From Marinifilum sp. (GTDB lineage Bacteria; UBA9089; CG2-30-40-21), in assembly GCA_020717845.1 (NCBI GenBank), contig DYDG01000002.1:1-53488 (forward strand): a DNA stretch of 53,488 nucleotides, written 5' to 3'. Below the pieces are notes generated by a model. That model was not told the origin of the DNA, made no database searches, and was given only the letters and a program-made list of their open reading frames with translations. A program made the position numbers and the translations under genes. Below, in pieces: positions 43 through 44,000 of the stretch (positions are counted from its first letter, which is position 1; every line of letters begins with the position of its first letter).

Positions 43-1053
43 CTATTTTTTACCTGTAATCCGTTTTATTTCTTTATCGAAATCAGAGATATAGTCCTTA
101 TCCTGTTGAATACGGTAAACCTCATATTCCTGTTCAGCCTTGAGTTTTGCCTCCAATGCGACTATTTTGCCCTTATCCTGCAAGATCGGATAGTTAGACA
201 ATTCCAGAAAGTTATGCAGAAATTCAACCCAGTCGGTCATTTTCATCAAAATCTGGCGATGCGCTCTGTTTTCAGCCAGATCAAGGTAGGCCGAGACGAT
301 CTGATTCAGTTCCTTGATGTGGGCTTCACCCAGGTAATTTTTAGCAACTGCAACATCAGATTTTAAGATTTTGCCATCCGGTGCATGTTTCCAGTTAGTC
401 AGCCCCATGTAGATTTTAGTCGCATCTGCTGAATCATAAATGATTTCAGCGGCTGTTTTCCCTGTGATGGCCCAATGCAGCTTGTTTTGCACTGTGGCAA
501 AAAACTCTTTGGTAATAGGCGCATTTTTATCATAATCAACAGACAGAGCGTATGTATCTGTAATTTTCTGATAAAACCGGCGTTCGCTGGCCCGGATTTC
601 CCTGATACGTTCTAACAATTCGTCAAAATAATCTTTACCAAAAACCTGATTGCCCTGCTTAAGCCGTTCATCATCCAGAACAAATCCTTTGATGATGAAC
701 TCTTTCAGAGTTTTGGTGGACCAGATACGAAATTGTGTGGCCTGATAGGAGTTGACACGGTAGCCGACAGAGATGATGGCGTCGAGGTTATAGAACCTTA
801 TGTTATAGCTTTTGCCATCACTGGCAGTTGTTAGGAATTCCCGAACAACTGAATTTTCATCAAGCTCACCTGTTTCGAAAATATTTGATAGATGCTCACT
901 AATGGTTGCTTTTGACTTTCCAAACAGCTCACCTATTGCCTTCTGGGTCAGCCAGACGGTTTCGTCTCTCAGCATTGCATTGATATTGACTTGCCCATTG
1001 TTTGATGTATAGAGAATAAAGCCAGATTGTCGTTCAGTTAGTTCATTTTTCAT
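43..1053 (-). CDS. Virulence RhuM family DNA-binding protein
   Basis: 336 aa with ETVWLTQKAIGELF, YNLDAIISVGYRVNS and ERIREIRASERRFYQKITD motifs typical of the RhuM family. Confidence 0.9.
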   Translation of the reverse strand: MKNELTERQSGFILYTSNNGQVNINAMLRDETVWLTQKAIGELFGKSKATISEHLSNIFETGELDENSVVREFLTTASDGKSYNIRFYNLDAIISVGYRVNSYQATQFRIWSTKTLKEFIIKGFVLDDERLKQGNQVFGKDYFDELLERIREIRASERRFYQKITDTYALSVDYDKNAPITKEFFATVQNKLHWAITGKTAAEIIYDSADATKIYMGLTNWKHAPDGKILKSDVAVAKNYLGEAHIKELNQIVSAYLDLAENRAHRQILMKMTDWVEFLHNFLELSNYPILQDKGKIVALEAKLKAEQEYEVYRIQQDKDYISDFDKEIKRITGKK

Positions 1054-1093
1054 GAGAACCCCCTTCTTTTTGGTTATGCCTTATCCGGAATTC

Positions 1094-1205
1094 ACACACC
1101 CCTAACCCCTCTTATTAGAGGGAAATACAAAGAATCCCCTCTTGAGAGGGGGTAGGGGGTGTGTATCTTCCCTATAGAAATTCCCCCAATTCACTGACGC
1201 ATTAC
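1094..1205. repeat. REP/MITE-like palindromic element
   Basis: acacacccctaacccctctt...gagagggggtagggggtgtgt inverted repeat. A related copy lies at about 37777-37825. The end tcactgacgcattac matches the terminal repeat of the element at 40753-40945. Confidence 0.7.
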
Positions 1206-1366
1206 AATTCCTTAGCTCTTTTATTCATTTCTACAGATATTGTTAACATCCTTTTAGCCCAGGGTTTAATAGAATTATTAATAGTCCTGCATGGTGCTGG
1301 TGAAGAGTATCTTATATAGTTTGATTTTTTATGATTCTCAAGGGATAAGTTAAGTTGTTGTGGCAT
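1202..1366 (-). pseudogene. 54-aa ORF whose N-terminus copies the leader of the 840-aa methyltransferase
   Basis: Manual translation MPQQLNLSLENHKKSNY versus MEQQLELAIENHNKPNC at 6664. The upstream RBS regions are also similar (aagaaggaaatgatcaaacATG vs agaaaggaatgaattaacATG). Confidence 0.55.
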
Positions 1367-1394
1367 GTTTGATCATTTCCTTCTTAAGTGATGA

Positions 1395-1450
1395 GACCAG
1401 AATTCAGCGGCGGCACGTAAGTGCCGTCCGCTGCAATAATTTTTTAGACA
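1395..1450 (-). other. Degenerate integron attC-like site
   Basis: Minus strand just after the HNH stop reads gtctaaa-aaatt-attgcagcggacggcac-ttac-gtgccgccgctgaat. This is an imperfect hairpin with two extrahelical bases. The R'' box is degenerate and R' is missing. Confidence 0.6.
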
Positions 1451-1466
1451 TCCTAAACTTTCTTCG

Positions 1467-1727
1467 TCATTTCTTCTTGTAAGGGTACTTATCGCTTTTC
1501 CTTCGATTCTCTTCCCAGTGGAGTGGCTGAATGTTCTTGGGAGTATCTGTTCCACCTTTTGATAGTGGGTTCTTATGATCTATCTCCCAACCATATTCTC
1601 CCTGTGTTCCATACGAAGGCTTGCGAATCAAAATTCCTAATACATCTTTTCCCCATACTTCAGGATTGCGTCCAGGAACAGGTTTGACTTTTTCCCACAC
1701 CTTGTCTATTTGCTTCTTGCTTGCCAT
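1467..1727 (-). CDS. Small HNH endonuclease
   Basis: GWEIDHKNPLSKGGTD..NIQPLHWEENRRK HNH motif; aggagg RBS. Confidence 0.9.
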   Translation of the reverse strand: MASKKQIDKVWEKVKPVPGRNPEVWGKDVLGILIRKPSYGTQGEYGWEIDHKNPLSKGGTDTPKNIQPLHWEENRRKSDKYPYKKK

Positions 1728-1796: not shown

Positions 1797-4157
1797 TCAA
1801 TAATATTTCCCATGAAACCATCTTTCTGTCATTCCCCTAATCTGTATACCATTTATAAGCCCTACCCCTGTCTTTTCAGCCTCTATCTTCCCATCCTGAG
1901 TAAAGTCAGAAGTGGTGATACATATTGCCTTATCTTTATCCCTTGCCATCTGATAGCTATGCAATCTCTGGATTGGAGTACTCCCCACATTATGCCTCCA
2001 ATTCTTGCATTGAAATATTACCTTAGAATCGTTTATCTTTGCCTCTATATCTACACCCTTATCGCTGGGACTGCCAGTGATAACAACATCTTTGTAACCT
2101 TCTTTTATTAATACCTCTTTTATGAGTACTTCAAATTCCTTGCCTGAAAGTGTATGTAAGTCAATCTTACCTGTTGCCTTAATTGGTAAAATTATCTTCT
2201 TTTCAATAAATCCCTCATTAGTTTCATCGACATAGTTTTTCAGAACACTTATAATGAAACCCTTATCCTCATTGATGGATTCTATGGCATCCTTATCACC
2301 ATTATCTAAATACAGGCTTAAATTATAAATATAATCGTTATAGTTAAACGCCTCTTTCTTTTTGAGAAGGTCTTCAACTATCCTTGGTGTCCAATCAAGG
2401 ATTCTATTTTGGATGGTTTCTTTTCTGAAGTCCTCAAAGATGGTTATATCTATCTTAGGTAAGAGTGTCTGATTGGGAAGTATATCAAAATACCTCTTGA
2501 TTAATAAATGAATGAGTTTTGCATTTAAGTAGAGTATTTTAAATCCTTGAGATCTTGCTTCGCTGAGAACTATATCTACTGCCTCAAGGAATTTCAATTC
2601 CCTTTTTTCTTTTATGTAGCGTTGCAAGGTGTTATAAACTACTTTATCAAGCCAGACATCACCTTCATAGTAATATTTTTCAGTCTCATCAAGTTTTAGG
2701 AAAAATATAAGGCTATCTGAAGTTATTGACCAATTTGACGACCAGAGGTATCTCATGGAAGGGTCAGCTTTTGCGTATGCAATTCTATGGATTGGCTCAA
2801 ATCCTGCTTTTCGAGCTGAGAGTTTTATCCTGTTTATTATCTCCATCCATCTTTTCTTACCCGCTCTGAAAAATAATACACAATAACCGTAAACCTTTAT
2901 CTTTTTACTGAAATGGTCAAATATCTCATCTAAAGAAGAACAATACTGTTCCCATCTTCTTTTATTATTCCTTTCAGGGCTATCAGTTACAATAACCTCT
3001 TTCTGTTTCATATAGTTTGAGAATTTCCATGTTTCATCACCTGTCCAAAAATACAACCAATCCCTGAAAAGCTGGTTTCTCTCAAGGTAAGGGACAAGTT
3101 CAGAATATGGAGGTTCTGAGAATATCAAATCTACTGAGCCATCAGCTACAGGAATATCATTATAACTCAAGCTGTAAATATTTCTTATAGAATCTGATTT
3201 TAATACTTCTCCAAGCCCCTCATCATCAAACTTAAACTTCATGACTTTGTTAAACCTATCCTCAAAACACAGCCATACATTCCTTTCCATACAGCATTTA
3301 TCAGGGATATGGTACAAATCTTGACTCTTTGCCTTATAATCTGTAATTTTCATTAAATGAAGTGCTGTTACCAATGCCATCTGTAGGAATTCTCTCTCAG
3401 AGGATTTTTCAAGTTCAAGAATTGCCTCTTGAAGCAAACATAAAGCATACTGGTTTCTCTTAGTGAAAAAACAATCGTAATGGTCAGTTTTGCCCGGGGT
3501 AATATTTATTCTCGCATTTATAATTAGATTATGAGAGGGAAATCTATATCCTGAGTTAAGGTTTACAGAATCAATTTTCTTCTTATCAACCTCACTAAAT
3601 TTCTTTTTACGGTTTTCACATTCAGGACATCTGTAAGCCATAACTATATTTTTACCATCATCCATATATAAGTGTGGTGTAGGGTTATAAAATTCCATTG
3701 GATTCAGGTCAAAATATAACCTATCTATGTAGTTTTGTTCCCCACAGCATACGGTAGAATACAAATCCATTATCTTTTGCTTTATTTTACCTTCTAATTC
3801 CTTAAAGAGAGTAATTATCTTCTTTTTATCCAATGACTTTAAAAATGAATCAACAAGATACCATGAATAATTATCAATATCGCCTGCTGTAATCTTACAC
3901 TTATTTCTGATAGCCTCGTAGACAATAATACCTGAACCCATAAATGGGTCGTATAGATGAATTTCGTTTGTTTGACTAATCTTTTCAAAATAGCTTATAA
4001 CTCGGGAAGCGATATCACTTGACTTTCTACCGCTGAATATATATGCGTTTTTACAACAAGCCCATGGGTTAACCTCTGCAGACATTATTAACTCACCAAT
4101 CTCTTTAATTGTAGTTCTTGTTTCCTTTTGTTTCTGTGGGTCTAATAGCCAATACAT
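1797..4157 (-). CDS. DNA methyltransferase-like domain fused to a C-terminal Mrr-family restriction endonuclease
   Basis: DPFMGSG motif I, Cys pairs and SEPPY (variant motif IV). C-terminal EFEVLI..SDKGVDI..FQCK..TTSDFT fits the Mrr catalytic domain. Confidence 0.85.
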   Translation of the reverse strand: MYWLLDPQKQKETRTTIKEIGELIMSAEVNPWACCKNAYIFSGRKSSDIASRVISYFEKISQTNEIHLYDPFMGSGIIVYEAIRNKCKITAGDIDNYSWYLVDSFLKSLDKKKIITLFKELEGKIKQKIMDLYSTVCCGEQNYIDRLYFDLNPMEFYNPTPHLYMDDGKNIVMAYRCPECENRKKKFSEVDKKKIDSVNLNSGYRFPSHNLIINARINITPGKTDHYDCFFTKRNQYALCLLQEAILELEKSSEREFLQMALVTALHLMKITDYKAKSQDLYHIPDKCCMERNVWLCFEDRFNKVMKFKFDDEGLGEVLKSDSIRNIYSLSYNDIPVADGSVDLIFSEPPYSELVPYLERNQLFRDWLYFWTGDETWKFSNYMKQKEVIVTDSPERNNKRRWEQYCSSLDEIFDHFSKKIKVYGYCVLFFRAGKKRWMEIINRIKLSARKAGFEPIHRIAYAKADPSMRYLWSSNWSITSDSLIFFLKLDETEKYYYEGDVWLDKVVYNTLQRYIKEKRELKFLEAVDIVLSEARSQGFKILYLNAKLIHLLIKRYFDILPNQTLLPKIDITIFEDFRKETIQNRILDWTPRIVEDLLKKKEAFNYNDYIYNLSLYLDNGDKDAIESINEDKGFIISVLKNYVDETNEGFIEKKIILPIKATGKIDLHTLSGKEFEVLIKEVLIKEGYKDVVITGSPSDKGVDIEAKINDSKVIFQCKNWRHNVGSTPIQRLHSYQMARDKDKAICITTSDFTQDGKIEAEKTGVGLINGIQIRGMTERWFHGKYY

Positions 4158-6664
4158 TTTTTATAATACTCCTTATCCTTAATCCTCTCCATTGCAATTT
4201 TCAGGTATTCTTCATTCCTTTCTATCCCGGTACATCCTCTTTCATAAATATCTGCTGCCAAGGGAATACTCCCTACCCCCATAAATGGGTCTATTATATT
4301 ATCCTGTGGATTTGTACATCCAAGTATAAGTCTTTTAACCACCTCTAATGGCTTCTGGGCAGGGTGTTTTCCATGTTTTTTTTCTCTTAAGGGTGTCAGG
4401 GGGACATCCCACACATTTCTCATTTGCTTGCCATTATTTAATTCCTTCATTATATTGTAATTAAAAGTCCAATTTTTAGCTTTTTTGGGATTGTTATTCA
4501 CCGCCCATATTATGTATTCTGTGCTTTCGCAAAGCATCCTCTGGGTAATATTAGGGAAGGCATTTCTCTTATACCAGGTGATAGAATTCACAATTCTTAT
4601 CTCTAATTCATTTAAAATCTCGCCTATGGTAAAAATATTATGCATACTTCCAAAGATAATGATATTACCGTTTTCCTTTACCACTCTTGTTATCTTTTGA
4701 ATCCAATCCTTAGTGAACTTCACATAATCTTTATTGGAAAACTTATCCCAATCTTCAGATATCTTTGTGAATTTCTTTTGTTCTGCCCAGTAATCATTTG
4801 ATTTAAGCCAACCAATCTTCTTTTTATGGTCATATCCGGAGATGTTGTATGGTGGGTCAGTGATGCAAGCATCAAATTCATTTTCTCCAAATTCATCCAA
4901 CAAAGACAGACTATCATCAAGATAAAATTCCAAATTCCTATCTTTAAATTTAAGATTACCTTTAGGCTTTAGTGTCCAGGTGTTTTTATCCTTATTGTAG
5001 AGACAAACATCTTCTAAACAACCTGGCAGGTCTCTGTACTTTGTAGAAAGTTTATGAAGTTCTCCTCTCTTATACAACCCTTCAATTAAACCGCTATTAA
5101 CTATCTCGGATGTAGATGCCTCTCCTCCTTTAGCAGATAAAATTTTCTTTACCAAAGTTCTAAGTTCTATCTCTGAATCCCCTGTTTTTTTCTCCTTGGT
5201 TATAGATTTCTTTCTTTTCTGAAATATCAGGAGGCATTCCCCTTTAATTGTAGACTTAGGGCTATTAATTTGCTTATAGGTATACTTATTTCTATGGACA
5301 GGGATTTGCTTAATAAAATCAAACCCGGCATTAGTACAGGCATCAAGGAAATTGCACCAATTCTCAAGTTTAGTATCATTAAACCAGACACAGGCATACT
5401 TATTGGGTTTCAGCACATCATGGATTAATTGAAAGGATTTATGTATATCCTCAAAATATCTTTTGAAGTCTTTGCCTTGTTCCCGATTGCTTACTACAAT
5501 TTCATCCTCTAACACAGCCTTATATCCAGTGAAATATTCCCAGAGTTTTAAGTATTCTGAATAAGCAACGAGGTCCATATAAGGTGGGTCTGTCAGCACA
5601 AAATCAATACTATCAGGAGGGATTTCACCATTACTTATTTTCTGGAATGGTTTATTGAGAATAACCACAGAGTTTGTATTTATATTATTGTGTGTTTTCA
5701 TCCTTATCAATTTATCAAATCTATCTTGAAATAGATACCAGATATTTCTTTCTACTCGTTCTTTAGTTGGTATCCAATAGGGGAACTGAGATTGGGACTT
5801 ACGGTCAGTGAATTTAGCAAGGTGAATACATGAACTCAATACTGCAACAAGGTCTTCTTTTTCCGAGCAGTCTTCAAGTTTAAAGATAATTTCTTTTATC
5901 CTTTTCATGAAATAAAACGCTCTGTTAGGAAAGATATCCAATATATACATTCCATTTTTAATAGCTATCCTCGAATTTGGTAAAAGTTTCATAGATTCAT
6001 CAGGCAATATTTTTAATTCCTCATTAATTGCCATTTGTATATTAACTTCTTCATTGGAGATGTCCCTTTTATAAGTTCTTCCGCAAGAAGGACAATAATA
6101 TTGTAGCATCTTTGGAATATTCACACCATCTTTATAATCATATTCTATTTTTAATAGACTTCCTGAACCTCTACATTCCAAACATAGTACCGAATAATAT
6201 TTTTCAAGTTCATCTTTTAATTCAAATTTGACTTGCGATAGAAAGGTTTGTAGACAAACCAGATCACTTTTTCTCAATATAGTATCAAGGATTTTGACAG
6301 GAAGCTCATTTATTTCCACTCCAATAGGATGTATCCCTTTATTTTGTCTTAATGCCTCAAGAATAGTTGTCCCAGACCCCATAAATGGGTCTAAGAGTGT
6401 ACCTTTATCTGGCAGGAAGGATTTTAATACTAAATCAGTTACATTATGAGGCTTTTTTGACCAGTATAAATGCCAGTCATACATAAACCCCTTTTGGGTA
6501 GGGGTAATTTTAGAAATCTCTTCTTCTAACTTATCAAAATTTATATCCATAGCTTGCTCCGAGTTTGGGATATGAATATTGATATCCTTATTCAAATGGA
6601 AGGATTTATCAAGGCAGTTTGGTTTGTTATGATTCTCAATGGCTAACTCAAGTTGTTGTTCCAT
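4142..6664 (-). CDS. Double DNA amino-methyltransferase (two MTase domains in one chain)
   Basis: N-domain has DPFMGSG, CxxC/CxxC and TDPPY. C-domain has ITDPPY, HPAQKP and DPFMGVG in beta-class order, resembling DpnA. Confidence 0.88.
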   Translation of the reverse strand: MEQQLELAIENHNKPNCLDKSFHLNKDINIHIPNSEQAMDINFDKLEEEISKITPTQKGFMYDWHLYWSKKPHNVTDLVLKSFLPDKGTLLDPFMGSGTTILEALRQNKGIHPIGVEINELPVKILDTILRKSDLVCLQTFLSQVKFELKDELEKYYSVLCLECRGSGSLLKIEYDYKDGVNIPKMLQYYCPSCGRTYKRDISNEEVNIQMAINEELKILPDESMKLLPNSRIAIKNGMYILDIFPNRAFYFMKRIKEIIFKLEDCSEKEDLVAVLSSCIHLAKFTDRKSQSQFPYWIPTKERVERNIWYLFQDRFDKLIRMKTHNNINTNSVVILNKPFQKISNGEIPPDSIDFVLTDPPYMDLVAYSEYLKLWEYFTGYKAVLEDEIVVSNREQGKDFKRYFEDIHKSFQLIHDVLKPNKYACVWFNDTKLENWCNFLDACTNAGFDFIKQIPVHRNKYTYKQINSPKSTIKGECLLIFQKRKKSITKEKKTGDSEIELRTLVKKILSAKGGEASTSEIVNSGLIEGLYKRGELHKLSTKYRDLPGCLEDVCLYNKDKNTWTLKPKGNLKFKDRNLEFYLDDSLSLLDEFGENEFDACITDPPYNISGYDHKKKIGWLKSNDYWAEQKKFTKISEDWDKFSNKDYVKFTKDWIQKITRVVKENGNIIIFGSMHNIFTIGEILNELEIRIVNSITWYKRNAFPNITQRMLCESTEYIIWAVNNNPKKAKNWTFNYNIMKELNNGKQMRNVWDVPLTPLREKKHGKHPAQKPLEVVKRLILGCTNPQDNIIDPFMGVGSIPLAADIYERGCTGIERNEEYLKIAMERIKDKEYYKKCIGY

Positions 6665-6716
6665 GTTAATTCATTCCTTTCTAAATACTTCAATGAATTC
6701 AATTGAACTCATATAT

Positions 6717-6745
6717 AATATACCATATTTTCTAAAAGCTGTCAA
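6717..6745 (-). promoter_or_regulatory. Sigma70-type promoter for the MTase operon
   Basis: TTGACA-17 nt-TATATT on the minus strand about 50 nt upstream of the ATG at 6664. Confidence 0.6.
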
Positions 6746-6753
6746 GTATTTTT

Positions 6754-7653
6754 TTACAATTCAGGCAAGACAATACTTATCTGTGTTCCGGGAAAGAAAC
6801 TAAGTGCGGATTGTTGAGGTTTTGTGGCATCCCATTGCGGGACTATGCCTACCTTTGCCATTCCTGAGCGAATCATAATTTTACCATTCCATTTTTGGAC
6901 CAATTTTCTGACGCTGGTTAATCCGTGTCCCCTGCCTATGTCATCATATCGAGATGCACTCTCAAATAAGGCAAGCCTGATGGCTACTGAATCAGACCAA
7001 TCCTTACTATACAAATGGCTATATTTTAGCGAAAGAGATTCTTTTACCCCTATTCCTAAATCCATTACAGAAATCTTCACTACCTTTTTACCAAACTTTT
7101 TCCCATAAAAATACTTTTGGATACCCACATAGCCTACATCCTGGCTATGTTCCGGAATATTCTGGCAAACCTCTGATAGGGCAACAATGAAGGAATCAAT
7201 CGCCATATTATCATAATGGAGATGCGTCCGGAGAATGATCTCGGCACCCCTCTTCACCCTATCCACTATCGAATGAATGTCATCCGAACCCTGTATTTTT
7301 GTCATCTCAAGCAAGACATCTGAATGCCTGCTTCGCAAGAATCGTTCCCCTATCTGAACTGTGGAAATATCCATCTCAAAGGGAGGGCTGGCATTCTTGA
7401 AAAAATCCATTCGCTCAAGATATTTTAATACATTCACTGATTCGGGGAAGTTCAGTATTGGAGCAATACCCAGCTTCTTCCTCAAATACCAGCCAAATTC
7501 CAGTAATCCAATCATTCCATAGGGATCGATAAACTCAATCTTTTCTAAGTTGATGATAACTTCGTTCCCTATCATGTCCCGATTAGATTGTAGCAATAGA
7601 TGCTCAAATGTATTTTCGTCTAAGTATGCAGGTGAGGATAAATTACATGGCAT
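6754..7653 (-). CDS. STAS-like plus HATPase_c-like ATP-binding protein
   Basis: INLEKIEFIDPYG (STAS-like); SEVCQNIPEHS N-box, MDLGIG G1 box and GRGHGL G2 box. Confidence 0.75.
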   Translation of the reverse strand: MPCNLSSPAYLDENTFEHLLLQSNRDMIGNEVIINLEKIEFIDPYGMIGLLEFGWYLRKKLGIAPILNFPESVNVLKYLERMDFFKNASPPFEMDISTVQIGERFLRSRHSDVLLEMTKIQGSDDIHSIVDRVKRGAEIILRTHLHYDNMAIDSFIVALSEVCQNIPEHSQDVGYVGIQKYFYGKKFGKKVVKISVMDLGIGVKESLSLKYSHLYSKDWSDSVAIRLALFESASRYDDIGRGHGLTSVRKLVQKWNGKIMIRSGMAKVGIVPQWDATKPQQSALSFFPGTQISIVLPEL

Positions 7654-13367: not shown

Positions 13368-14576
13368 TTAGATATTATCCCATAAATTTTTAAATACTAA
13401 CCCTCGAATATTCTCAAAAGCATCAACAATGGAAAGGGTTGTATCCCCAACATTATTAAAATCTTTATGCTTACCTCTAACACCATTGCTTCTAAAATAA
13501 GTTGTAAGGTCAATAGCTGCATCAAAAATCATAGATAAGTATTTTTTAGTTTCTTCATATGTCAACCCAGATACATTATCACATTGAATTTTTAGACATT
13601 GCAAATAGTGTCTAAAAGCCTCTCGTTCAGAAAAATTAACTGTTGTTGGTTGTGCTCCTTGAAATAAAATGTCAGTATAATTCGAATTGAATACTGGATC
13701 GGTTTTCATATCTTTAAGAATTCCGCCACTATGAGCTATATCCAAGAACTGTATTTGATATTCAGTTAATGCCTGTGGACAATAATACCATGTGCTTTTT
13801 CGTCCTCCTTCTTGTTCATCATCATCTATTTTAAAATCACCTAAAGGAAACATTCTGGTTTTCATCCATGTACCTGCACAAATAGCATCAACCTTTGCTA
13901 ATGATAGAAATAAAAATTGATGATTAGAATACCCAACTATTACAGTTTTTTCAAATAGTTTTAAACCAGCAACCAAATCAAATAAATTAATTAACCAAGA
14001 AGCATTATCAATCAAGTAAGAATTGTTAGGATGTATAGGTACAATATAAAAACCGTCAACAGGATAATTCTCTAAATAATCGAGCAAAGCATGAGTTTTT
14101 TCCTCATTTTTTAATAAATCTTCGCCAATACAAAGGGTCATATATTTTGGAATCTTTATATTCATTTTGTTAACAGCATTTTGAATAATAGAATTTATTT
14201 TATCAAAATCACCGTCTACATTAGAAAAATATATCCCTGGAATAATGAATGCATTGGCTTTTAAGGGCAAGACATAATCATTATATAAAACATTTAACAT
14301 TTCAGAACAGCCACTACCATTTAAAAACATGTTTGTATTGTAATTTGAAGGCCAAAAAGAATGTTCACATAGATTCTCATGAGATGTTCTGGGTACATAA
14401 AATTGAGGATCAAAAATCACCGAACCGTTATATTTCTCTAAACTATCTGACAGATTAAGCATTTTTTCGATAGTCATATTTTTAGGACTTAAAATGGATG
14501 TTGCCCCTTTCCATTTTTTATTTAGCTCAACACAATGTTCACGCATTCCATGACCCATTTGTAAATATAAATTCAT
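13368..14576 (-). CDS. Uncharacterised 402-aa protein, possibly TIM-barrel-like; third gene of the kinase cassette
   Basis: Long AT-rich ORF with gagga RBS, about 10 nt after the kinase stop. Motifs include LQMGHG, ILSP, FDPQFY and WYYCP, with an alternating beta/alpha pattern. Confidence 0.8.
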   Translation of the reverse strand: MNLYLQMGHGMREHCVELNKKWKGATSILSPKNMTIEKMLNLSDSLEKYNGSVIFDPQFYVPRTSHENLCEHSFWPSNYNTNMFLNGSGCSEMLNVLYNDYVLPLKANAFIIPGIYFSNVDGDFDKINSIIQNAVNKMNIKIPKYMTLCIGEDLLKNEEKTHALLDYLENYPVDGFYIVPIHPNNSYLIDNASWLINLFDLVAGLKLFEKTVIVGYSNHQFLFLSLAKVDAICAGTWMKTRMFPLGDFKIDDDEQEGGRKSTWYYCPQALTEYQIQFLDIAHSGGILKDMKTDPVFNSNYTDILFQGAQPTTVNFSEREAFRHYLQCLKIQCDNVSGLTYEETKKYLSMIFDAAIDLTTYFRSNGVRGKHKDFNNVGDTTLSIVDAFENIRGLVFKNLWDNI

Positions 14577-14586
14577 ACAATTATCC

Positions 14587-15453
14587 TCATTCTATTAGTG
14601 TGCTTTTAACGACATCAAAAAGAACTTTAGCTTCAGTCACATTTCTCGGTCTTCTAGAGATTCTATTATCGCCAAGTGTCTTAATAAATCTTGCTAATAG
14701 GAATTGAGTATCACCAGATATTTTTAAACGCGGTAGTGGTTGTTGCTCTATATTTTTTATAATTTGAAGAATGTCATTAGCATTTTGTATATATGGATTA
14801 TAACCAAGGATCATTTCAGCAGCAACAACACCTAATGAAAACAAATCAGTTCTGATATCAATTTCTCTCTTACAATTTCTTAACTGTTCTGAAGCTGAAT
14901 ATCCTACAGTACATGGTCCGAAAGGAGAATTTGTAGCTGTAATGGATTGTAAATCAAGATGTCTTGAAATACCAAAGTCAATTAACCAGAATTTATTTAA
15001 TTTATCTAATATAATATTTTCTGGTTTTATATCTCTATGGACGATTCTATTAGACTCAGCTTTTTCGAGTATACTTAGCATTACATCAAAAAAATTGATA
15101 ACCTCTGTTAATTGGAATTTTCTTTTTTCGCTAATTTCTTGTCGTAATGATAAGCCTTCAATATATTCCTCAACAATCCATATTAATTCATTAGGACTTG
15201 TTATCTCATCTATATTTGTCTTAATAATTACTGGTATATGACTGCTATTTAAAATGTTACAAGCTCTAACCTCACGCTTAACTCTTTCTAAAGAGTTTTC
15301 ATCAGAATGTATTATTTTTAATACAACTGTTTGATTTTCATAAAGAGCTTGATACACATGTTTTTGTCCTCCTTTTCCAATCAATTTTATTATTTTCAAA
15401 TTTTCAATTCTTGAATTTATTGAGTCAATCATTTCTTGTGTAATGTCAAACAT
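14587..15453 (-). CDS. Hanks-type serine/threonine protein kinase (stand-alone, soluble)
   Basis: GKGGQKHV glycine loop, VLK, HRDIKPEN, DFG, GYSASEQ and DLFSLG. Confidence 0.95.
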   Translation of the reverse strand: MFDITQEMIDSINSRIENLKIIKLIGKGGQKHVYQALYENQTVVLKIIHSDENSLERVKREVRACNILNSSHIPVIIKTNIDEITSPNELIWIVEEYIEGLSLRQEISEKRKFQLTEVINFFDVMLSILEKAESNRIVHRDIKPENIILDKLNKFWLIDFGISRHLDLQSITATNSPFGPCTVGYSASEQLRNCKREIDIRTDLFSLGVVAAEMILGYNPYIQNANDILQIIKNIEQQPLPRLKISGDTQFLLARFIKTLGDNRISRRPRNVTEAKVLFDVVKSTLIE

Positions 15454-16162
15454 AATTCACCCCTTTAGTTCTACCAATATATTCATGCATAAACCAGGTA
15501 GTAATATTTGAAGGCATTACATTTTTATCTGGATTCTTTATTATTTTATAATTGTTTTTGTAAGAAATAATTCCAACACTGGTATTTTTGTAACTATTTA
15601 ATAATTTTTCTGATATAGTATTTTCTGGAAAAAGAGAATATGATTTTGACGAAAAATACGTATTATTGATTGATTGCTCTAATGCTCTTTTCCAGTCCTT
15701 AAGCTTTGCTTCAATAGCAATAATTTCTTTAATAAAGAAAATATTTTTTAATGGTTTGGTTTTAAAGTTAAAACATTCCATTTCTTTGATTAGATTAATG
15801 TTACATAAAATATCAAGAGAATTTAAAATTACCTTTTTTGAAAAACCAAGCTCTGTAATTAATTCATCAATATTTTTACTATTAGATGATATATACAAAT
15901 GGTGAAGTATTTTTATGTCTGTAGTAGTCAACTTATTACGTTTTTCATCCCACTGAGTTCTCATTGATTTATCCCAAATTATACAAACTAAGTCTGGATA
16001 ACCAAAACCAGTAAAGGGTTCTTCAATTAGAGTATAATTATATTTCTCTGGATATTTATTATTATTAAAAAAATCAGATGATAAAAAATCTTTTAAAAAC
16101 AAGTATTCTTTTGTGATTTTCTGATTGGGTCTGATATAAATCATATAGCACCTTTTGGACAC
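15446..16162 (-). CDS. PD-(D/E)XK nuclease-like protein with inserted winged helix
   Basis: EP..GYPDLV then an HTH-like segment (IDELITELGFSKKVILNSLDIL) then IAIEAKLKDWKRALEQ. Overlaps the kinase start by 8 nt. The true start may be the ATG at 16144. Confidence 0.7.
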   Translation of the reverse strand: MSKRCYMIYIRPNQKITKEYLFLKDFLSSDFFNNNKYPEKYNYTLIEEPFTGFGYPDLVCIIWDKSMRTQWDEKRNKLTTTDIKILHHLYISSNSKNIDELITELGFSKKVILNSLDILCNINLIKEMECFNFKTKPLKNIFFIKEIIAIEAKLKDWKRALEQSINNTYFSSKSYSLFPENTISEKLLNSYKNTSVGIISYKNNYKIIKNPDKNVMPSNITTWFMHEYIGRTKGVNYV

Positions 16163-34598: not shown

Positions 34599-35426
34599 TT
34601 ACTTCTCCACAATATCATAATTTGCAATCAACAATTCTTTCCCCTTTTGTGCTGTTTGCTGTTTATAATTGTTCATTCCGTATTGCAATTCCCACTCAAC
34701 CTGATAAAAGTCTCTAAATAATGTTCGGATATATTCATTATTATCATAGGTTATTAACCATTTATGTTTACATTGCTTGAGATTTTCAAAAAATATTTTG
34801 TGATCAAACCCTACATGAAGACACCCCTTTTTCCCATATAACCTTGACTGAGTAGTTGAATAATATGGTGGGTCCAAAAAAATAAACACATTTTCTCCAT
34901 TTCTATATAAAAGCTCAGTATAATCTTTTGGGCTGAATTCTATATGTTTAACAATATTGTAAGCGTTTTCTAATCGCTCAATTGAAGACAGTGTAAATCG
35001 TTTTTCAAATGCTTGTTCTGAATATCCTCCACTATCTACAACACCAGAAAATGTAATTCTGTTTAGTACAAAAAAATCAATTGCTCGCTGAAAATCTGAT
35101 AATGCCTGCTTTCGTTTAGCAATAAGTTCTTGAAATAATTCTCTTCCATTGACATATTCTTTTTTTACTCGGAGGATTTCTTTGATTAAATTATCCTTAT
35201 TTGATTGTAATTCCTTCCAAAAACAATATAAGTCATAATTTGCATCACTTGCATAATACCGAGTAGATGATTTTTTTTGAACACAATAAAATGAAAATGA
35301 CCCTCCTCCAAAAAACGGTTCTCTCAACTCTTCATATTGAGGAATGAAAGCAGAAAGATAGCCTACTGCCCTGGATTTTCCTCCTGGATAACGCAAAGGA
35401 CTCTTAATCATCTTTTTTCCTCTCAC
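34599..35426 (-). CDS. Dam-like (D12 class) N6-adenine DNA methyltransferase
   Basis: SPLRYPGGKS, EPFFGGGS, FLDPPY and WLITYD. Confidence 0.93.
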   Translation of the reverse strand: MRGKKMIKSPLRYPGGKSRAVGYLSAFIPQYEELREPFFGGGSFSFYCVQKKSSTRYYASDANYDLYCFWKELQSNKDNLIKEILRVKKEYVNGRELFQELIAKRKQALSDFQRAIDFFVLNRITFSGVVDSGGYSEQAFEKRFTLSSIERLENAYNIVKHIEFSPKDYTELLYRNGENVFIFLDPPYYSTTQSRLYGKKGCLHVGFDHKIFFENLKQCKHKWLITYDNNEYIRTLFRDFYQVEWELQYGMNNYKQQTAQKGKELLIANYDIVEK

Positions 35427-36555
35427 CGTATTCTATTACGACCTCAAAGTTGTTTGCTCTTGCTTCCTTGAACAAGGTATTAACAAATTCTTCTTTATTT
35501 TTCCTGAAACGGTTCTCATGGAAGAATGTTTTAATCTCACTTTCGTTCATATTTGTTGTAATTTTGCCCTGTATTTTTTCGGATGTTAGCCTGAGTACAG
35601 GAATAAAATTGACAAGCGTTTTTGAGTTAATATCTGTTTCTTCATAAAGTTTATCTATATTTGAAAAAAGCATCATCTTGATAAGCCCATCTTTTATATC
35701 ATTTTCTCCAGGTAAAATTGACTTTTTGGAATGTTTGCTTTCGATAAGTTCATACCTGTTGTCATGAATAATCACATCATCAACTGTTAGAAAATATTTA
35801 CCGCCCAAATAATTCTCTATTTCGATAGGTGTTTTTACTCCTACGCTTAATACCTCTTTTGGTTGAGTCGTCCCTATTTCTCTTTTCTGTGCCTGAGCAG
35901 ATTTGAGTCTTGAAAAGGCTAAAAAACTCTCTTGACTTATAATGATACGTTCTCTGAAGGCTTCTATCCCTGCTTCATTATGAAGCTTAACGCCTGTCTT
36001 ATTTGAAATTAGTCGATAACTGAGAATGACTTTTTCCATAAGACCATCTAATTTTTCAGGGCTCAATTGATTTAAGTTCCAGTGTAGAGCAGATGAATGA
36101 TAGTTGGATAACTCCTTTAATTGAGCTTTTACGAAATCACCATCCAACTGTTGTTTTGTTATTCTATTTGGTTTTTGAGCGTCTCGATAATTCTTTTGGG
36201 CATCCATATAATAAGCAAGGATGACATATACATTTAACAAGCTCATTAATTGGACAGTGTCCCATTGGAGATAGTCTATGTTTTGAGAATCTGCTCCTTC
36301 ATCTTTTACAATAGGTATAACCGTAATGGTTTTTCCTCCACAAGTAGATAAAGTGTCATACACACTGGCGAATGGATATGTTCTTGTTCTTTTCGGACCA
36401 GTCCATTTACTGACTGCATAAATTGTATCGTTATCCTTAATACAACATCTTGATTGCCAAGCATTCACATCAGTATCAAATAATACGGTTAACAAAGGGC
36501 TTTTAAGAAAACTTTCGTACCTCATATTCATTATTTTGCCAATTAATTTGGACAT
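35404..36555 (-). CDS. Putative type II restriction endonuclease
   Basis: Lies between two MTases and overlaps the Dam-like gene; TVDD...IESK PD-(D/E)XK-like motif. Confidence 0.7.
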   Translation of the reverse strand: MSKLIGKIMNMRYESFLKSPLLTVLFDTDVNAWQSRCCIKDNDTIYAVSKWTGPKRTRTYPFASVYDTLSTCGGKTITVIPIVKDEGADSQNIDYLQWDTVQLMSLLNVYVILAYYMDAQKNYRDAQKPNRITKQQLDGDFVKAQLKELSNYHSSALHWNLNQLSPEKLDGLMEKVILSYRLISNKTGVKLHNEAGIEAFRERIIISQESFLAFSRLKSAQAQKREIGTTQPKEVLSVGVKTPIEIENYLGGKYFLTVDDVIIHDNRYELIESKHSKKSILPGENDIKDGLIKMMLFSNIDKLYEETDINSKTLVNFIPVLRLTSEKIQGKITTNMNESEIKTFFHENRFRKNKEEFVNTLFKEARANNFEVVIEYGERKKDD

Positions 36556-36571
36556 ATTTACAACCCCCTGT

Positions 36572-37687
36572 TTATTTAGTTATTTGGTTTAATCGTTCAA
36601 TAGCATATTGAACATACTTTTCCTGAGTATCAATCCCAATATGTTTCCGTCCTAATTTCTCAGCAACTATATTTGTTTGTCCGCTTCCAGCAAATATATC
36701 GATAACAGTATCGTCTTTATATGAATAAAACTGAATAATTCTTTTGGCTAATTCTTCTGGAAAAGGACAGGGATGAAGATTTTGTTGGGGAGCAACCGGG
36801 GGAATCTTCCAGACATTTTTGCTCAGTTCTCCTTGATAATCTCTCAAATCAATCTTATTTGTTTGCTTATCTTCACGTGAACGAAAGTAGTAGATATTAT
36901 TTTCTTCCTTTTTACCTGCTGGCTTTTGGAAAACCAATACATATTCAGCAACCAAACTTGGATAATAATAACCTGGATATGGGTGTTGCATTAACACACC
37001 GCTTCTCTTATCTTTTGCAATCTCTTTTTCCCAAATAATATCTTCCTTGAACTGCCAGCCTATTTCCTCCATCCATCCTGTAAAATGAAAAGGTAATGGT
37101 ACTCGGATACCGTTCCATCCTACTGGAGAAATATTCACAACATTATATCCTCCTGGCTTAATAATACGATATAATTCCTTAAATCGATCAGTCAAAAATG
37201 TTCGATAAAAGTCGTAGGAAACTTCTTTGCGTGTCCAATACTCGATTTTTCCCTCAAGTTTTTGGATATGTTCCTCATAATTGATAGCGTTATGATATGG
37301 AGGAGAAGTAAAGGCAAGGATAATAGAATCATCAGCAATAGATTTCATAGCTTCCAGACAGTCGCCTTGAATAATTTCTCCTCGTCCAATTTCATGAACT
37401 CTGATCTTCTCTTGTGTCCATTTAAATCGTCTCCCTAATTCTAAGGCTGAAATAATCTGTAACGCTTTCGTGGTTCCAATCCCTGGGAATTCGCTTAATT
37501 TTTCTATAGAAATCGAATTGTTTAGATTTGTGCGGATATATTCAACCAGTTCTTTGCTTAAATCAAAGACATTTTTCCCTTTAGAACCATGCCCCAAAAT
37601 AATAGCAATCAAATCTTCAGTACTTATTTGTGTAGGATTTTTAATTTCAAGTAATTTTTCTCTTGGTTTTTTAGATTCGGTATTCAT
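36572..37687 (-). CDS. RadC N-terminal (HhH) domain fused to a beta-class N4-C/N6-A DNA methyltransferase
   Basis: KPREKLL..EDLIAIILGHG..GIGTTKALQIISALELGRR (RadC N-terminus), then TSPPY, HPCPFP and DIFAGSG. Confidence 0.85.
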   Translation of the reverse strand: MNTESKKPREKLLEIKNPTQISTEDLIAIILGHGSKGKNVFDLSKELVEYIRTNLNNSISIEKLSEFPGIGTTKALQIISALELGRRFKWTQEKIRVHEIGRGEIIQGDCLEAMKSIADDSIILAFTSPPYHNAINYEEHIQKLEGKIEYWTRKEVSYDFYRTFLTDRFKELYRIIKPGGYNVVNISPVGWNGIRVPLPFHFTGWMEEIGWQFKEDIIWEKEIAKDKRSGVLMQHPYPGYYYPSLVAEYVLVFQKPAGKKEENNIYYFRSREDKQTNKIDLRDYQGELSKNVWKIPPVAPQQNLHPCPFPEELAKRIIQFYSYKDDTVIDIFAGSGQTNIVAEKLGRKHIGIDTQEKYVQYAIERLNQITK

Positions 37688-40945: not shown

Positions 40946-41000
40946 TTCTCACCTAAAAAAACACTTGCAAATCACTACCATTTATGATATAGTTAAAATC

Positions 41001-44000
41001 ATGATGAAGATCAGGGATTTGATTGAAACACCACAGGTTAAAACGGTTATCCAGTTAGAAGATGTGCATTCAAAGGATAGGGGTGTTCTTGAAGAGCTGC
41101 TGAATTCCTTTGTCTTTACTGAAGAGGTATCATTTAACCTTGAAGTACTATTTGATGCCTTTAGTAAACCCACAGGCACAGGCTGTTTTTTGAAAGGCAA
41201 TTATGGCAGTGGAAAGTCACACTTTCTGGCAGTTCTCTCCATCTTGCTGGAACACATGCCTCTGGTTGATAAAAGGGAGATTGCTTCCAGATACTTATTG
41301 AGGGAAAAGAGATTTCTGACGGTTAAGATCCCATTGGTACGCTACCCCAGCTCGCTCAAGTTAGAGGAGATTATCCTCTCTTCTATTGAGAAGGAATTTC
41401 CTACACCTATCATTTTAGCCAACCATAACCGTTTGGTCAATGATTTTAACAAATATATCCTGCCTCAGCACCCAGAATTCCTCAAAGAACGTACCCAGCA
41501 GCAGTGGCAGGGATTAATCCAGGAGGATTCACTGACCGCTGCTCGGGAGATTGTCAGCTACTTAAATACCCTTGAGTCTGTCCCCTTAAAGTATCATTAT
41601 GACCGGGAAGAGGCTTTTGAAAGGATAAGGGCAGCGATTAATGGTGAGGGATTAGTTCTGCTTATTGATGAGCTTTCAGAATTCCTTAAGGCAAAGCAAA
41701 AAACTACTGATTTTAATGAGGATGTGCGTTATCTGCAATATCTGGGTGAGAAGGCAGCATCCTCGCCGCTCTGGATAATTGCCTCCCTGCAGGAAGGGAT
41801 TGAGGAGATAGGCTATTTAGAGGAGGCATTGTTTAACCGCATCAAGGACCGCTATCCAAAACGGCTCACCCTTTCCTCACGCCACATCGAGGAGCTGATT
41901 GACAAAAGACTGATTATCAAGAAACAGGGAGCCACAGCACACATCAGCCAGGTCTACACCAATCTCAGGCACGCCTTCCCACACTTAGTCATGGATAAGG
42001 AGAAATTCATCCAGCTTTATCCAACTCATCCAGCAACCATTCGCATGTTAGAAGGGTTGTCCCTGCTCTTTTCCCAGCATCGCGGGGTAGTTGATTACAT
42101 CCACTACCAGATTGCCGGCGACATGAGCCGACAGATTGAAGGGATGCTGGATAAACCTGCTGACACACTTCTTACCCCTGATACCATCTTTGACCATTTT
42201 AGCCATCGTATCAAGGAGACGGTTGAGATTGCCCCTTATTATAATATTGCCTTCAGCTATTTTCAGCGGGAGATACCTGAGCTCTTTAAGAAAGAGTTTG
42301 ACCAGAAGATTGCCTTAAATCTGGTTAAGCTATTGATCCTTACCGAGCTGTCACCACTGGAAAAAAGGCATACCGTCAGAGAACTCACCAATATGCTGGT
42401 CAAGAAGGTAACAGATCTGGAAAGCGGGTTTAATTATGACTATATCAAAGAGGCTATCTTAGACAGATTGCTGATAGAGGCAGCCTATATTAAGAGTGAG
42501 CCTGCGGAAAATCCTTTAGATGCTATTTATTACCTTGACCTTGAGGCAAATATCAACCAGCTTATTGCCCGCTATACCAAGGAACTCATCAAGGAATTGA
42601 AGACAAAGGAACAAAGTTGTTTGGGGCTGCTTAAGGCTATTAACCCCACCTACCTACCTCTGTCTGGTCTGTCTGAAGGCAGACAGAAACAATTTATCCG
42701 CTGGGAAAATACAACCAGAGAGGGGATAGTAACCCTGTGTGATTTGCGAGACGTCTCATTAAGTGAGATGGAATTGCTTTCTCAAAACCTGCTTAAAGAG
42801 GTAGCACCTCTGGCACAGGAGACAGATTTTGTCCTTTTAATGGGGTTGCCTGTTTCTATTGATGAGCAAAAGGAGTATATCACTAAACTATTGGGTTATC
42901 AGCAGGCTAATGCCCTTTTGCAGAATATTGTTGTCTGGCTGCCAACTTATCTAACCCCGCAGGATGAGGACTATTGTTTTACTACCTACAGCCATCAGAT
43001 ACTTATGCAAAGGTGCCAGAATAATGACCCGCATCAACTCAAGCCTGTCCTGAGCAAGATGGTGGAAAAAGAAATGCCAAGGATGCGTGAAATCTTAACT
43101 GAGGTCTACTTTAGGGGTAGTTTGTTTAATGCCCAGGGAGAGAGGAAAACCGCATTAAAGGATCTGGGTTATCCTGCCTTTGAGCATTTATTAAAGACCA
43201 TATTCAGCCCGCTGCTTTCTTTAAGCTATCCCAAACATACCGAGATTATGCCTTACACAGATTATATCACCCCGCATACCATCGAAACGCTCTGGACAGA
43301 ATTCATCACCCTCGAAAAAATTACCCTGAAGCAGGCACAGGAAAAGGATGTGCAAAATAGTATTGAAACAATTGCTATCCCTATGGGATTGGCTAAAAAA
43401 ACCGCTAATTATTTTATCTTGAATGTAGAGGCAACCAAAAATGAATTAATTATCGATTATCTGTCCCATCTTTTGCCGGGTAAAAGGGTGAAGCTTGAAA
43501 ATCTTTACTGGCGATTGCGTAAAAGCCCATGGGGGATAGACAGACACCAATTTAATCTCCTGACCGCAGCCCTTATCCATACAGGCTATCTCACCCCTTA
43601 CAAGGAAGGACGCATCAGCCCATTTCCTTCACCAGCAAAGCTTTATTCATTTGGGATAGACGAGCTGGGTGAAGGGAAATTATTGGAAAAGGAATATCTT
43701 GAGCTTTTGCCTTTGGGCAATTTTATCTGGGGTGGGGTAAGCAGGACACCCTTTACCCTGATTACCCAACGTCAGCTCTGGGATGAGGCATTGAAATTCA
43801 AATCAAAGACAGACACCAGCCAATCGGCAAGGGTTTATACCCGTTTCAGCGATTATTCGGCATTCAAATCACTCATCGTGGATGAAATCAATAAAATTGT
43901 CTTATCAGTAGAGGATTTTCTGGATGAGATTAAAATAAGCTATGATTCTAAGAATGGCCTGGAGCGAATTCTCTCCTACCTTCAAGAGCATTCTGATGTT

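What the first reader, a model, noticed from the sequence alone, without database searches (positions are those of the whole stretch)
1797..6664. Two-gene R-M-like operon with three methyltransferase domains and an Mrr nuclease
Seen: the N-terminal MTase domains of the 840-aa and 786-aa proteins are clear paralogues (DPFMGSG, Cys pairs, HL.K.TD.K..SQ..Y.IP...ERN.W, DPPY vs EPPY). The first adds a second, beta-class DpnA-like MTase. The second adds an Mrr catalytic domain. The genes overlap by 16 nt behind their own promoter. Known: Mrr domains usually cut modified DNA, and type IIG/III systems have other layouts. Inference: a heterodimeric system in which the EPPY copy may be a weak or inactive MTase used as a specificity or methyl-sensing module for the nuclease.
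Basis: partly seen in the sequence, partly recalled or inferred. Interest (0 to 1): 0.72.

Follow-up and report, generated by a model that had tools for sequence, protein, structure and literature searches.

The report
BtgZI-like restriction system with three methylases
Two overlapping genes encode what is most likely a restriction-modification system: one protein carries two DNA methylases predicted to mark the two strands of a target site, and the other joins a duplicated, loosened methylase fold to a DNA-cutting domain, a rare layout already described for the commercial enzyme BtgZI.

Summary
The 840-aa protein is an alpha-order methyltransferase (A, DPPY) fused to a beta methyltransferase. 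The 786-aa protein (B) is a paralogue of A (EPPY) ending in an intact Mrr-type PD-QxK nuclease. The layout is a conserved family: of 78 related loci with enough flank, 76 have A beside B plus a second methylase (Dam-like in 73, beta in 3). B's domain order is the one described for the Type IIC enzyme BtgZI. A nuclease-methylase fusion with two companion methylases is the BpuSI/BseRI plan. So B most likely cuts unmethylated, not methylated, DNA. EPPY itself occurs only in this lineage. The heterodimer idea has no support from gene context: the genes face each other in 79 of 119 loci. This scan noted the same family before on other DNA (e1-4283152).

The parts
6717..6745 (-). sigma-70-type promoter-like site (TTGACA, 17 nt, extended -10), 53 nt upstream of the first gene
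   Evidence: 11 of 12 consensus matches; kept in G003 and G008; function not shown
6693..6712 (.). 20-bp palindrome just downstream of the -10 box, operator-like
   Evidence: one mismatch in the window, perfect in G003 and G008; binding protein unknown
4142..6664 (-). gene 1, 840 aa (P0001): fused double methyltransferase A~beta
   Evidence: orthologues 92% and 78% identical
5207..6532 (-). methyltransferase A core (aa 45-486): alpha motif order, motif I DPFMGSG, about 260-aa insertion with Cys pairs (predicted target-recognition region), motif IV DPPY at 5579-5590
   Evidence: PADLOC MTase_II PDLC03319 E 9e-31; model pLDDT 88.5; DPPY in 51 of 51 family representatives; dN/dS 0.13
4970..5176 (-). 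predicted winged-helix-like domain of A (aa 497-565)
   Evidence: three helices and a hairpin in the model; label inferred from that pattern
4169..4951 (-). beta-class amino-methyltransferase (aa 572-832), DPPY at 4847-4858
   Evidence: 56-64% identical to beta domains linked to other A proteins; dN/dS 0.18
1797..4157 (-). gene 2, 786 aa (P0002): methyltransferase-like~wH~wH~Mrr-type nuclease, the predicted restriction enzyme
   Evidence: 122 complete B~Mrr ORFs among 134 loci
2688..4082 (-). methyltransferase-like core of B (aa 26-490), paralogue of A; motif IV EPPY at 3105-3116
   Evidence: relaxed motifs I and IV in the family; dN/dS 0.18
2202..2651 (-). two predicted winged-helix-like domains of B (aa 503-567 and 579-652), likely a spacer and DNA-binding arm
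   Evidence: secondary structure of the model; weak winged-helix Pfam hits in distant relatives; label inferred
1836..2156 (-). Mrr-type nuclease domain (aa 668-774): E676, D699-x-G-V-D703, Q716-x-K718
   Evidence: Pfam Mrr_cat E 3e-22; these residues in 80 of 80 representatives; structural matches to MspJI 4f0p and AF1548 1y88 over about 125 columns

Best explanation
This is most likely a Type IIC/IIG-style restriction-modification system of the BtgZI layout, in which the 786-aa protein would bind an asymmetric, unmethylated site through its methylase-derived half and cut at a distance, while the two methylase domains of the 840-aa protein would each mark one strand to protect the host. Shown here: the domain content, the A/B paralogy, the conserved three-module family, co-inheritance of A and B, an invariant nuclease site, and relaxed methylase motifs in B. 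Inferred by analogy with BtgZI, BpuSI and BseRI: A methylates the base that B's paralogous pocket reads, the beta domain (a Dam-like D12 enzyme in most relatives) methylates the other strand, and the single nuclease site of B cuts both strands by transient dimerisation. Because A makes B's own methylation redundant, B's methyl transfer is likely weak or lost (about even odds), while its SAM and base pocket is likely kept as a reader.
For: Family: 76 of 78 loci with at least 3.5 kb on both sides have A next to B~Mrr, always with a second methylase (D12 73, beta 3) (loci include near-duplicates). A and B tree distances correlate at r 0.97 over 57 matched loci. Nuclease residues are kept in 80 of 80 B representatives. 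A controller-like HTH gene lies directly upstream of B in 60 of 76 convergent loci, as is usual for restriction genes (established knowledge). Decay fits a toxic nuclease in two cases: G008 keeps A~beta and has lost aa about 65-546 of B, and L054 has lost the methylase gene (49 aa left; not found elsewhere in that genome with one query) and its B stops inside the nuclease domain. Relaxation: at the 11 canonical columns of motifs I and IV (D, P, F, G, S, G; T, D, P, P, Y), A shows 1 parsimony change and B 23, while the two cores diverge equally overall (14.0 versus 14.0 changes per column). All domains are under purifying selection between G000 and G003 (dN/dS 0.13-0.19). Precedents: PMC4081073 section 27 and PMC3874165 Table 4 and section 37 passages.
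Against: No activity, target site or modification type was measured. L107 has an intact B followed by an insertion sequence with no methylase gene in the 7.6 kb fetched; the rest of that contig could not be searched. B's motif columns are still far more conserved than background, 39 of 80 B proteins keep DPPY, and DFPY is fixed in a large clade (32 of 80), so B may remain an active methylase. Variants such as DPPF, DPPW and NLPY occur in active enzymes (recalled, not from a call). Mrr and MspJI, the nearest named nuclease relatives, are modification-dependent.
Confidence: 0.78

Rival explanations
1. Same system, but B is still a fully active bifunctional methylase-nuclease like Eco57I or BpuSI, and the motif changes (EPPY, DFPY, DPPW, DPPF) are tolerated variants. 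This differs from the best explanation only in B's methyl transfer.
For: 39 of 80 B proteins keep DPPY; G74, P350, K45 and F72 never change in 57 matched loci. B core dN/dS is 0.18. Distant 800-860-aa relatives with the same domain order mostly keep TDPPY, and two examined loci show no companion methylase nearby. BtgZI is filed as a combined enzyme.
Against: At least four separate departures at motif IV and many at the glycine loop of motif I occur in B and none at motif IV in A. The window's B departs at T347, D348, D353 and Q354 together.
Confidence: 0.4
2. A and B form an obligate heterodimer (Type III Mod2-like or METTL3/14-like) in which A methylates and B's inactive copy reads the site and carries the nuclease.
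For: A and B are paralogues, co-inherited (r 0.97), and translationally coupled by a 16-nt overlap in this lineage. B's catalytic motifs are relaxed.
Against: The genes are convergent in 79 and divergent in 4 of 119 loci. B has its own regulator gene in most convergent loci. A carries a D12 domain at its N-terminus, a beta domain at its C-terminus, or neither. A~beta persists in G008 after B's core was deleted. Co-inheritance is equally expected from a shared target site.
Confidence: 0.1
3. B is a modification-dependent (Type IV-like) nuclease whose methylase fold senses methylated bases in foreign DNA, and the neighbouring methylases serve a separate role.
For: The nuclease is of the Mrr family and structurally matches MspJI; Mrr and MspJI are listed as modification-dependent in PMC4081073.
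Against: Two companion methylases are kept in 76 of 78 loci, one of them B's own paralogue with a congruent tree; a nuclease aimed at that methylated site would attack its host. BtgZI has the same Q-variant nuclease and is a site-specific Type II enzyme.
Confidence: 0.06
4. The window's copy is a decaying R-M remnant: EPPY is a loss-of-function change, and the locus now works mostly as a methylase.
For: EPPY is confined to this lineage, and the related genome G008 has lost most of B.
Against: Open frames, all nuclease residues intact, EPPY shared with the G003 orthologue, and dN/dS 0.17-0.19 in all parts of B.
Confidence: 0.06

Closest known systems
BtgZI (Type IIC, GCGATG 10/14), as described in PMC4081073, section 'Type IIC' (section read in full)
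   Same: [quoted passage not shown]
   Different: The review gives no companion methylases, linker domains or motif IV for BtgZI. Sequence kinship, target and cut position could not be tested. Here motif IV is EPPY and the family shows relaxed catalytic motifs.
BseRI and BpuSI (monomeric Type IIG with two companion MTases), PMC3874165 Table 4 and section 37 (passages seen)
   Same: An R-M fusion accompanied by two methylases, fused (BseRI, M1~M2) or separate (BpuSI), one of the same class as the fusion's own MTase domain.
   Different: Those fusions have an N-terminal nuclease and a gamma-class MTase; here the MTase has alpha motif order and the nuclease is C-terminal and Mrr-type.
Mrr and MspJI (Type IV, modification-dependent)
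   Same: Mrr_cat nuclease domain with the QxK site.
   Different: B carries a whole methylase fold in front of the nuclease and travels with two methylases; no methyl-binding SRA-type domain was seen.
CcrM / DpnA / M.MboIIA beta-class methylases
   Same: Closest solved relatives of aa 572-832 of the 840-aa protein.
   Different: Here the domain is fused behind an alpha-order methylase and is replaced by a Dam-like D12 enzyme in most related loci; its specificity is unknown.
BREX PglXI / DUF1156 alpha-order methylases
   Same: PADLOC PglXI model matches the A and B cores (E 2e-24 and 9e-11).
   Different: No BREX genes occur beside the pair in the window or among the recurring neighbours of the 134 loci (neighbours clustered by similarity, not annotated one by one).

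Membership tests
BtgZI-type Type IIC | N-terminal amino-MTase with alpha motif order (motif I, target-recognition insertion, motif IV) | tested here: met
   Motif I at aa 70, motif IV at aa 348, insertion between; the model aligns end to end with T4 Dam over about 456 columns, weakly
BtgZI-type Type IIC | C-terminal PD-(D/E)xK nuclease with Q in place of E | tested here: met
   D703, Q716-x-K718; kept in 80 of 80 representatives
BtgZI-type Type IIC | Sequence homology to RM.BtgZI | not testable with these tools
   No tool holds REBASE or a named BtgZI sequence
Type IIC/IIG (general) | Methyltransferase activity in the same chain as the nuclease | tested here: inconclusive
   Domain present and under purifying selection, but motif IV is EPPY and the family's motifs are relaxed; activity needs an assay
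Type IIC/IIG (general) | Cleavage of unmethylated DNA at a fixed distance from an asymmetric site | not testable with these tools
   A site-avoidance test on 57 loci showed no clear motif
BseRI/BpuSI-type IIG | Two companion MTases, fused or separate | tested here: met
   A~beta in the window; A plus a second MTase in 76 of 78 loci
BseRI/BpuSI-type IIG | N-terminal nuclease followed by a gamma-class MTase | tested here: not met
   The order is reversed and the motif order is alpha
Type III R-M | Res subunit with SF2 helicase/ATPase and a beta-class Mod subunit as sole specificity unit | tested here: not met
   No helicase domain in either protein. A helicase-like neighbour appeared in only 10 of 134 loci
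Type IV (Mrr/MspJI) | No cognate methylase; cuts modified DNA | tested here: not met
   Companion methylases in 76 of 78 loci; substrate preference itself not testable
Heterodimeric methylase (active plus inactive paralogue) | Physical complex of A and B | not testable with these tools
   Needs co-purification; see Tried and rejected for the complex job

The most novel reading that the evidence does not exclude
B is a pseudo-methyltransferase restriction enzyme. After a single-chain alpha-MTase~wH~wH~nuclease gene duplicated, the copy that lost the nuclease (A) took over methylation, and B's methylase fold became a catalytically dead, base-flipping site reader. The opposite-strand methylase is a swappable part (Dam-like or beta). 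The family would then be a living series from active IIC fusion (DPPY) to recognition-only enzyme (DFPY, EPPY), a route from Type IIG to Type IIS-like enzymes that I found in none of ten literature searches.
Probability: 0.4. Interest if true: 0.58.

Novelty: new variant of a known kind. Interest (0 to 1): 0.38.

Why it matters
The layout has one published precedent that I found (BtgZI, one sentence in a review) and no solved close relative. The family offers at least 80 distinct members with graded methylase motifs. That allows a direct test of a point raised in PMC3874165: that the intrinsic methylase of IIG enzymes with two companion methylases may do something other than protect the host. 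Members may also give new cut-outside-site enzymes. It is not a new class of defence system.

Tried and rejected
Complex prediction of A (aa 45-570) with B (aa 26-495), each with its alignment: no verdict, score 0.00 in two runs, controls not folded; it counts neither way. Target-site inference from k-mer avoidance in the system's own genes (57 loci, 299 kb, 20 synonymous-codon shuffles): only general CG, GATC and CTAG-type depletion; GCGATG 40 observed versus 63 expected, rank 63 of 2071, not distinctive. Sequence and structure searches of the PDB found only generic methylase folds and the beta domain's relatives; VIA-align was run for A only, and long models can hide single-domain matches. 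The protein Atlas could not be queried. Ten paper searches found no description of this family beyond the BtgZI sentence; the library lacks most subscription journals, patents and REBASE. Six supplementary files of PMC4752239 held none of six terms, including GCGATG and BtgZI; one supplement of PMC4081073 could not be searched. An internal start at Met26 of B (no overlap) was rejected because homologues share the longer N-terminus. The downstream HNH (1467-1727) and RhuM (43-1053) genes were rejected as parts: G003 and G008 have other genes there, and contigs of two runs go on in unlike sequence right at 1796. Contigs from two RNA libraries cover parts of the region, but this does not show transcription. 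The nuclease partner of the 22 distant A~beta proteins (800-884 aa) could not be found: no locus was reachable. The search of earlier findings by sequence returned nothing.

Full report
1. Observation. Both ORFs are present as described: 4142-6664 (840 aa, P0001) and 1797-4157 (786 aa, P0002), minus strand, overlapping by 16 nt, in a 33-35% GC stretch within 40-45% GC surroundings. Their N-terminal halves are paralogues (25% over 465 columns, E 4e-32; profile-profile over 526 columns). P0001 ends in a beta-class methylase and P0002 in Mrr_cat. A promoter-like site at 6745-6717 is kept in two related genomes.

2. Anatomy. AlphaFold2 models with family alignments are confident (B: pLDDT 89.1; first 575 aa of P0001: 88.5). 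Both have a methylase core with alpha motif order: motif I, an insertion of about 260-270 aa with Cys pairs, then motif IV. A is followed by one and B by two three-helix-plus-hairpin domains that I read as winged helices (inferred from the pattern), and B ends in the nuclease. No solved structure is close.

3. The family. P0002 has 17 full-length homologues in the 90% cluster database and 18 among the top hits of the 50% representatives. A profile scan gave 54 genome and 80 metagenome loci (the best 80 of 135), mostly Bacillota where named; some are near-duplicates. Of 134 loci, 78 have at least 3.5 kb on both sides of B. In 76 of these, A lies beside B, always with a second methylase: Dam-like D12 in 73 (fused as D12~A or separate) and beta in 3 (fused in L001, separate in L055 and L057, which look alike). 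Among 119 A homologues from a second search, 57 are D12~A, 25 A~beta and 37 A alone, so the window's fusion is one of two recurring forms. Gene order varies: convergent 79, tandem 36, divergent 4 of 119. An HTH gene sits directly upstream of B in 60 of 76 convergent and 0 of 34 tandem loci. A and B distances correlate at r 0.97 over 57 matched, dereplicated loci. Among 60 genomes picked as relatives, the close A~beta orthologue was found in 2 (G003, G008), so it is patchy, as R-M systems are.

4. Which sites are intact. After dereplication at 80% identity, motif IV is DPPY in 51 of 51 A proteins. In 80 B proteins it is DPPY 39, DFPY 32, DPPF 3, DPPW 3, EPPY 1, DIPY 1, DFTY 1, and the glycine loop of motif I often departs (GSA, GGG, GSN, GTC and others). 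The nuclease residues E, D.G(V/I)D and Q.K are in 80 of 80. On a FastTree tree the motif IV departures arise at least four times, and EPPY is confined to the window's lineage. In the 57 matched loci the cores diverge equally (14.0 changes per column in both), yet 11 canonical motif columns show 1 change in A and 23 in B (parsimony on approximate trees, columns chosen by motif). Against a dead domain: those columns are still much more conserved than background, B has 26 invariant core columns to A's 33, and between G000 and G003 dN/dS is 0.18 for the B core, 0.17 for the nuclease, 0.13 for the A core and 0.18 for beta. The pocket is loosened, not discarded.

5. Broken copies. G008 keeps A~beta and has lost aa about 65-546 of B. 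L054 has lost nearly all of D12~A, with no other copy found in that genome by one query, and its B ends at aa 719. Both fit a nuclease that needs the methylases. L107 is the exception: intact B, then an insertion sequence, no methylase gene in the fetched flank.

6. Mechanism. The most likely reading is a restriction-modification system for an asymmetric site. B would recognise the site with its methylase-derived half and cut at a distance; A and the second methylase would protect the two strands. Cutting of unmethylated DNA, strand assignment, transient dimerisation and weak methyl transfer by B are inferred, not shown. Whether A writes m6A or m4C is open: PMC3874165 notes that alpha and beta classes do either. 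Distant 800-860-aa proteins with the same domain order, mostly intact TDPPY and other PD-(D/E)xK tails exist, and two loci examined show no companion methylase nearby. They suggest a single-chain ancestor from which A arose by duplication and loss of the nuclease; the direction was not tested with a rooted tree.

7. Comparison with what is known. [quoted passage not shown] PMC3874165 (passages, Tables 3 and 4) lists BseRI as R~M plus M1~M2 and BpuSI as R~M plus M1 and M2, and remarks that the fusion's own methylation may serve another role. PMC2731913, PMC2441816 and PMC4752239 (passages only) did not describe this family. So the system works like BtgZI in protein layout and like BseRI in system plan. 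Membership of the BtgZI family could not be tested. I had listed BtgZI as a guess, where that paper did not mention it; the pointer to the review passage came from earlier notes of this scan and I checked it myself.

8. Verdict. The finding is a real, conserved, apparently unstudied family built on a known but rare plan. What is new here is the relaxed methylase site in the nuclease-bearing paralogue and the swappable second methylase. Novelty: new variant of a known kind; it would drop to new member if REBASE shows BtgZI in this family with the same companions. Interest 0.38.

Noticed in passing
window 6693-6712: A 20-bp palindrome right after the -10 box, perfect in G003 and G008. This lineage has no controller gene, whereas other clades have a separate HTH gene upstream of B or, as in P0066, an HTH_17 domain fused to A~beta.
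   Followed up: partly
window 6754-7653; L153 3037-9119; L154 1864-9662: The upstream HATPase-like gene is the same in G000, G003 and G008. In G003 and G008 a 194-197-aa gene follows the cassette after one variable gene, so the slot looks like an insertion site with changing cargo.
   Followed up: partly
window 43-1727: An 86-aa HNH protein and a RhuM-family protein (PADLOC PDC-S05, E 3e-147) lie just downstream; not conserved beside the system.
   Followed up: partly
window 34599-37687: A second R-M locus: D12 methylase, Type II REase (PADLOC REase_II, E 3e-76), and a beta methylase fused behind a UPF0758_N (RadC N-terminal) domain.
   Followed up: partly
window 13368-16162: A low-GC (26-32%) three-gene cassette: a 238-aa and a 402-aa protein with no Pfam or PADLOC match around a Ser/Thr kinase; possibly a defence module.
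   Followed up: no
window 40965-46229: A 1754-aa protein with BrxC/PglY-like ATPase matches (E 1e-26), longer than the models.
   Followed up: no
L155 825-3419; L156 6700-9234: Single-chain 844-864-aa methylase-nuclease fusions with intact TDPPY, each behind a gene that resembles the RadC N-terminal domain (by eye) and without a companion methylase nearby; part of a larger family (P0021-P0023, P0184, P0189 and others).
   Followed up: partly
L063 922-1878 and 22 other loci: A 318-aa protein with a weak PvuII-endonuclease match (E 4e-5) recurs near the system in 23 of 134 loci.
   Followed up: no
L160, L161, L162, L135, hit H22: Members occur on viral contigs (complete in L160 and L161, cut off in L162), on a phage record, and beside phage-like genes on a Clostridium butyricum megaplasmid.
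   Followed up: partly
P0182, P0279: Longer fusions with more methylase modules (1101 aa with D12 and N6_N4 matches; 1308 aa with an HTH and three N6_N4 stretches).
   Followed up: no
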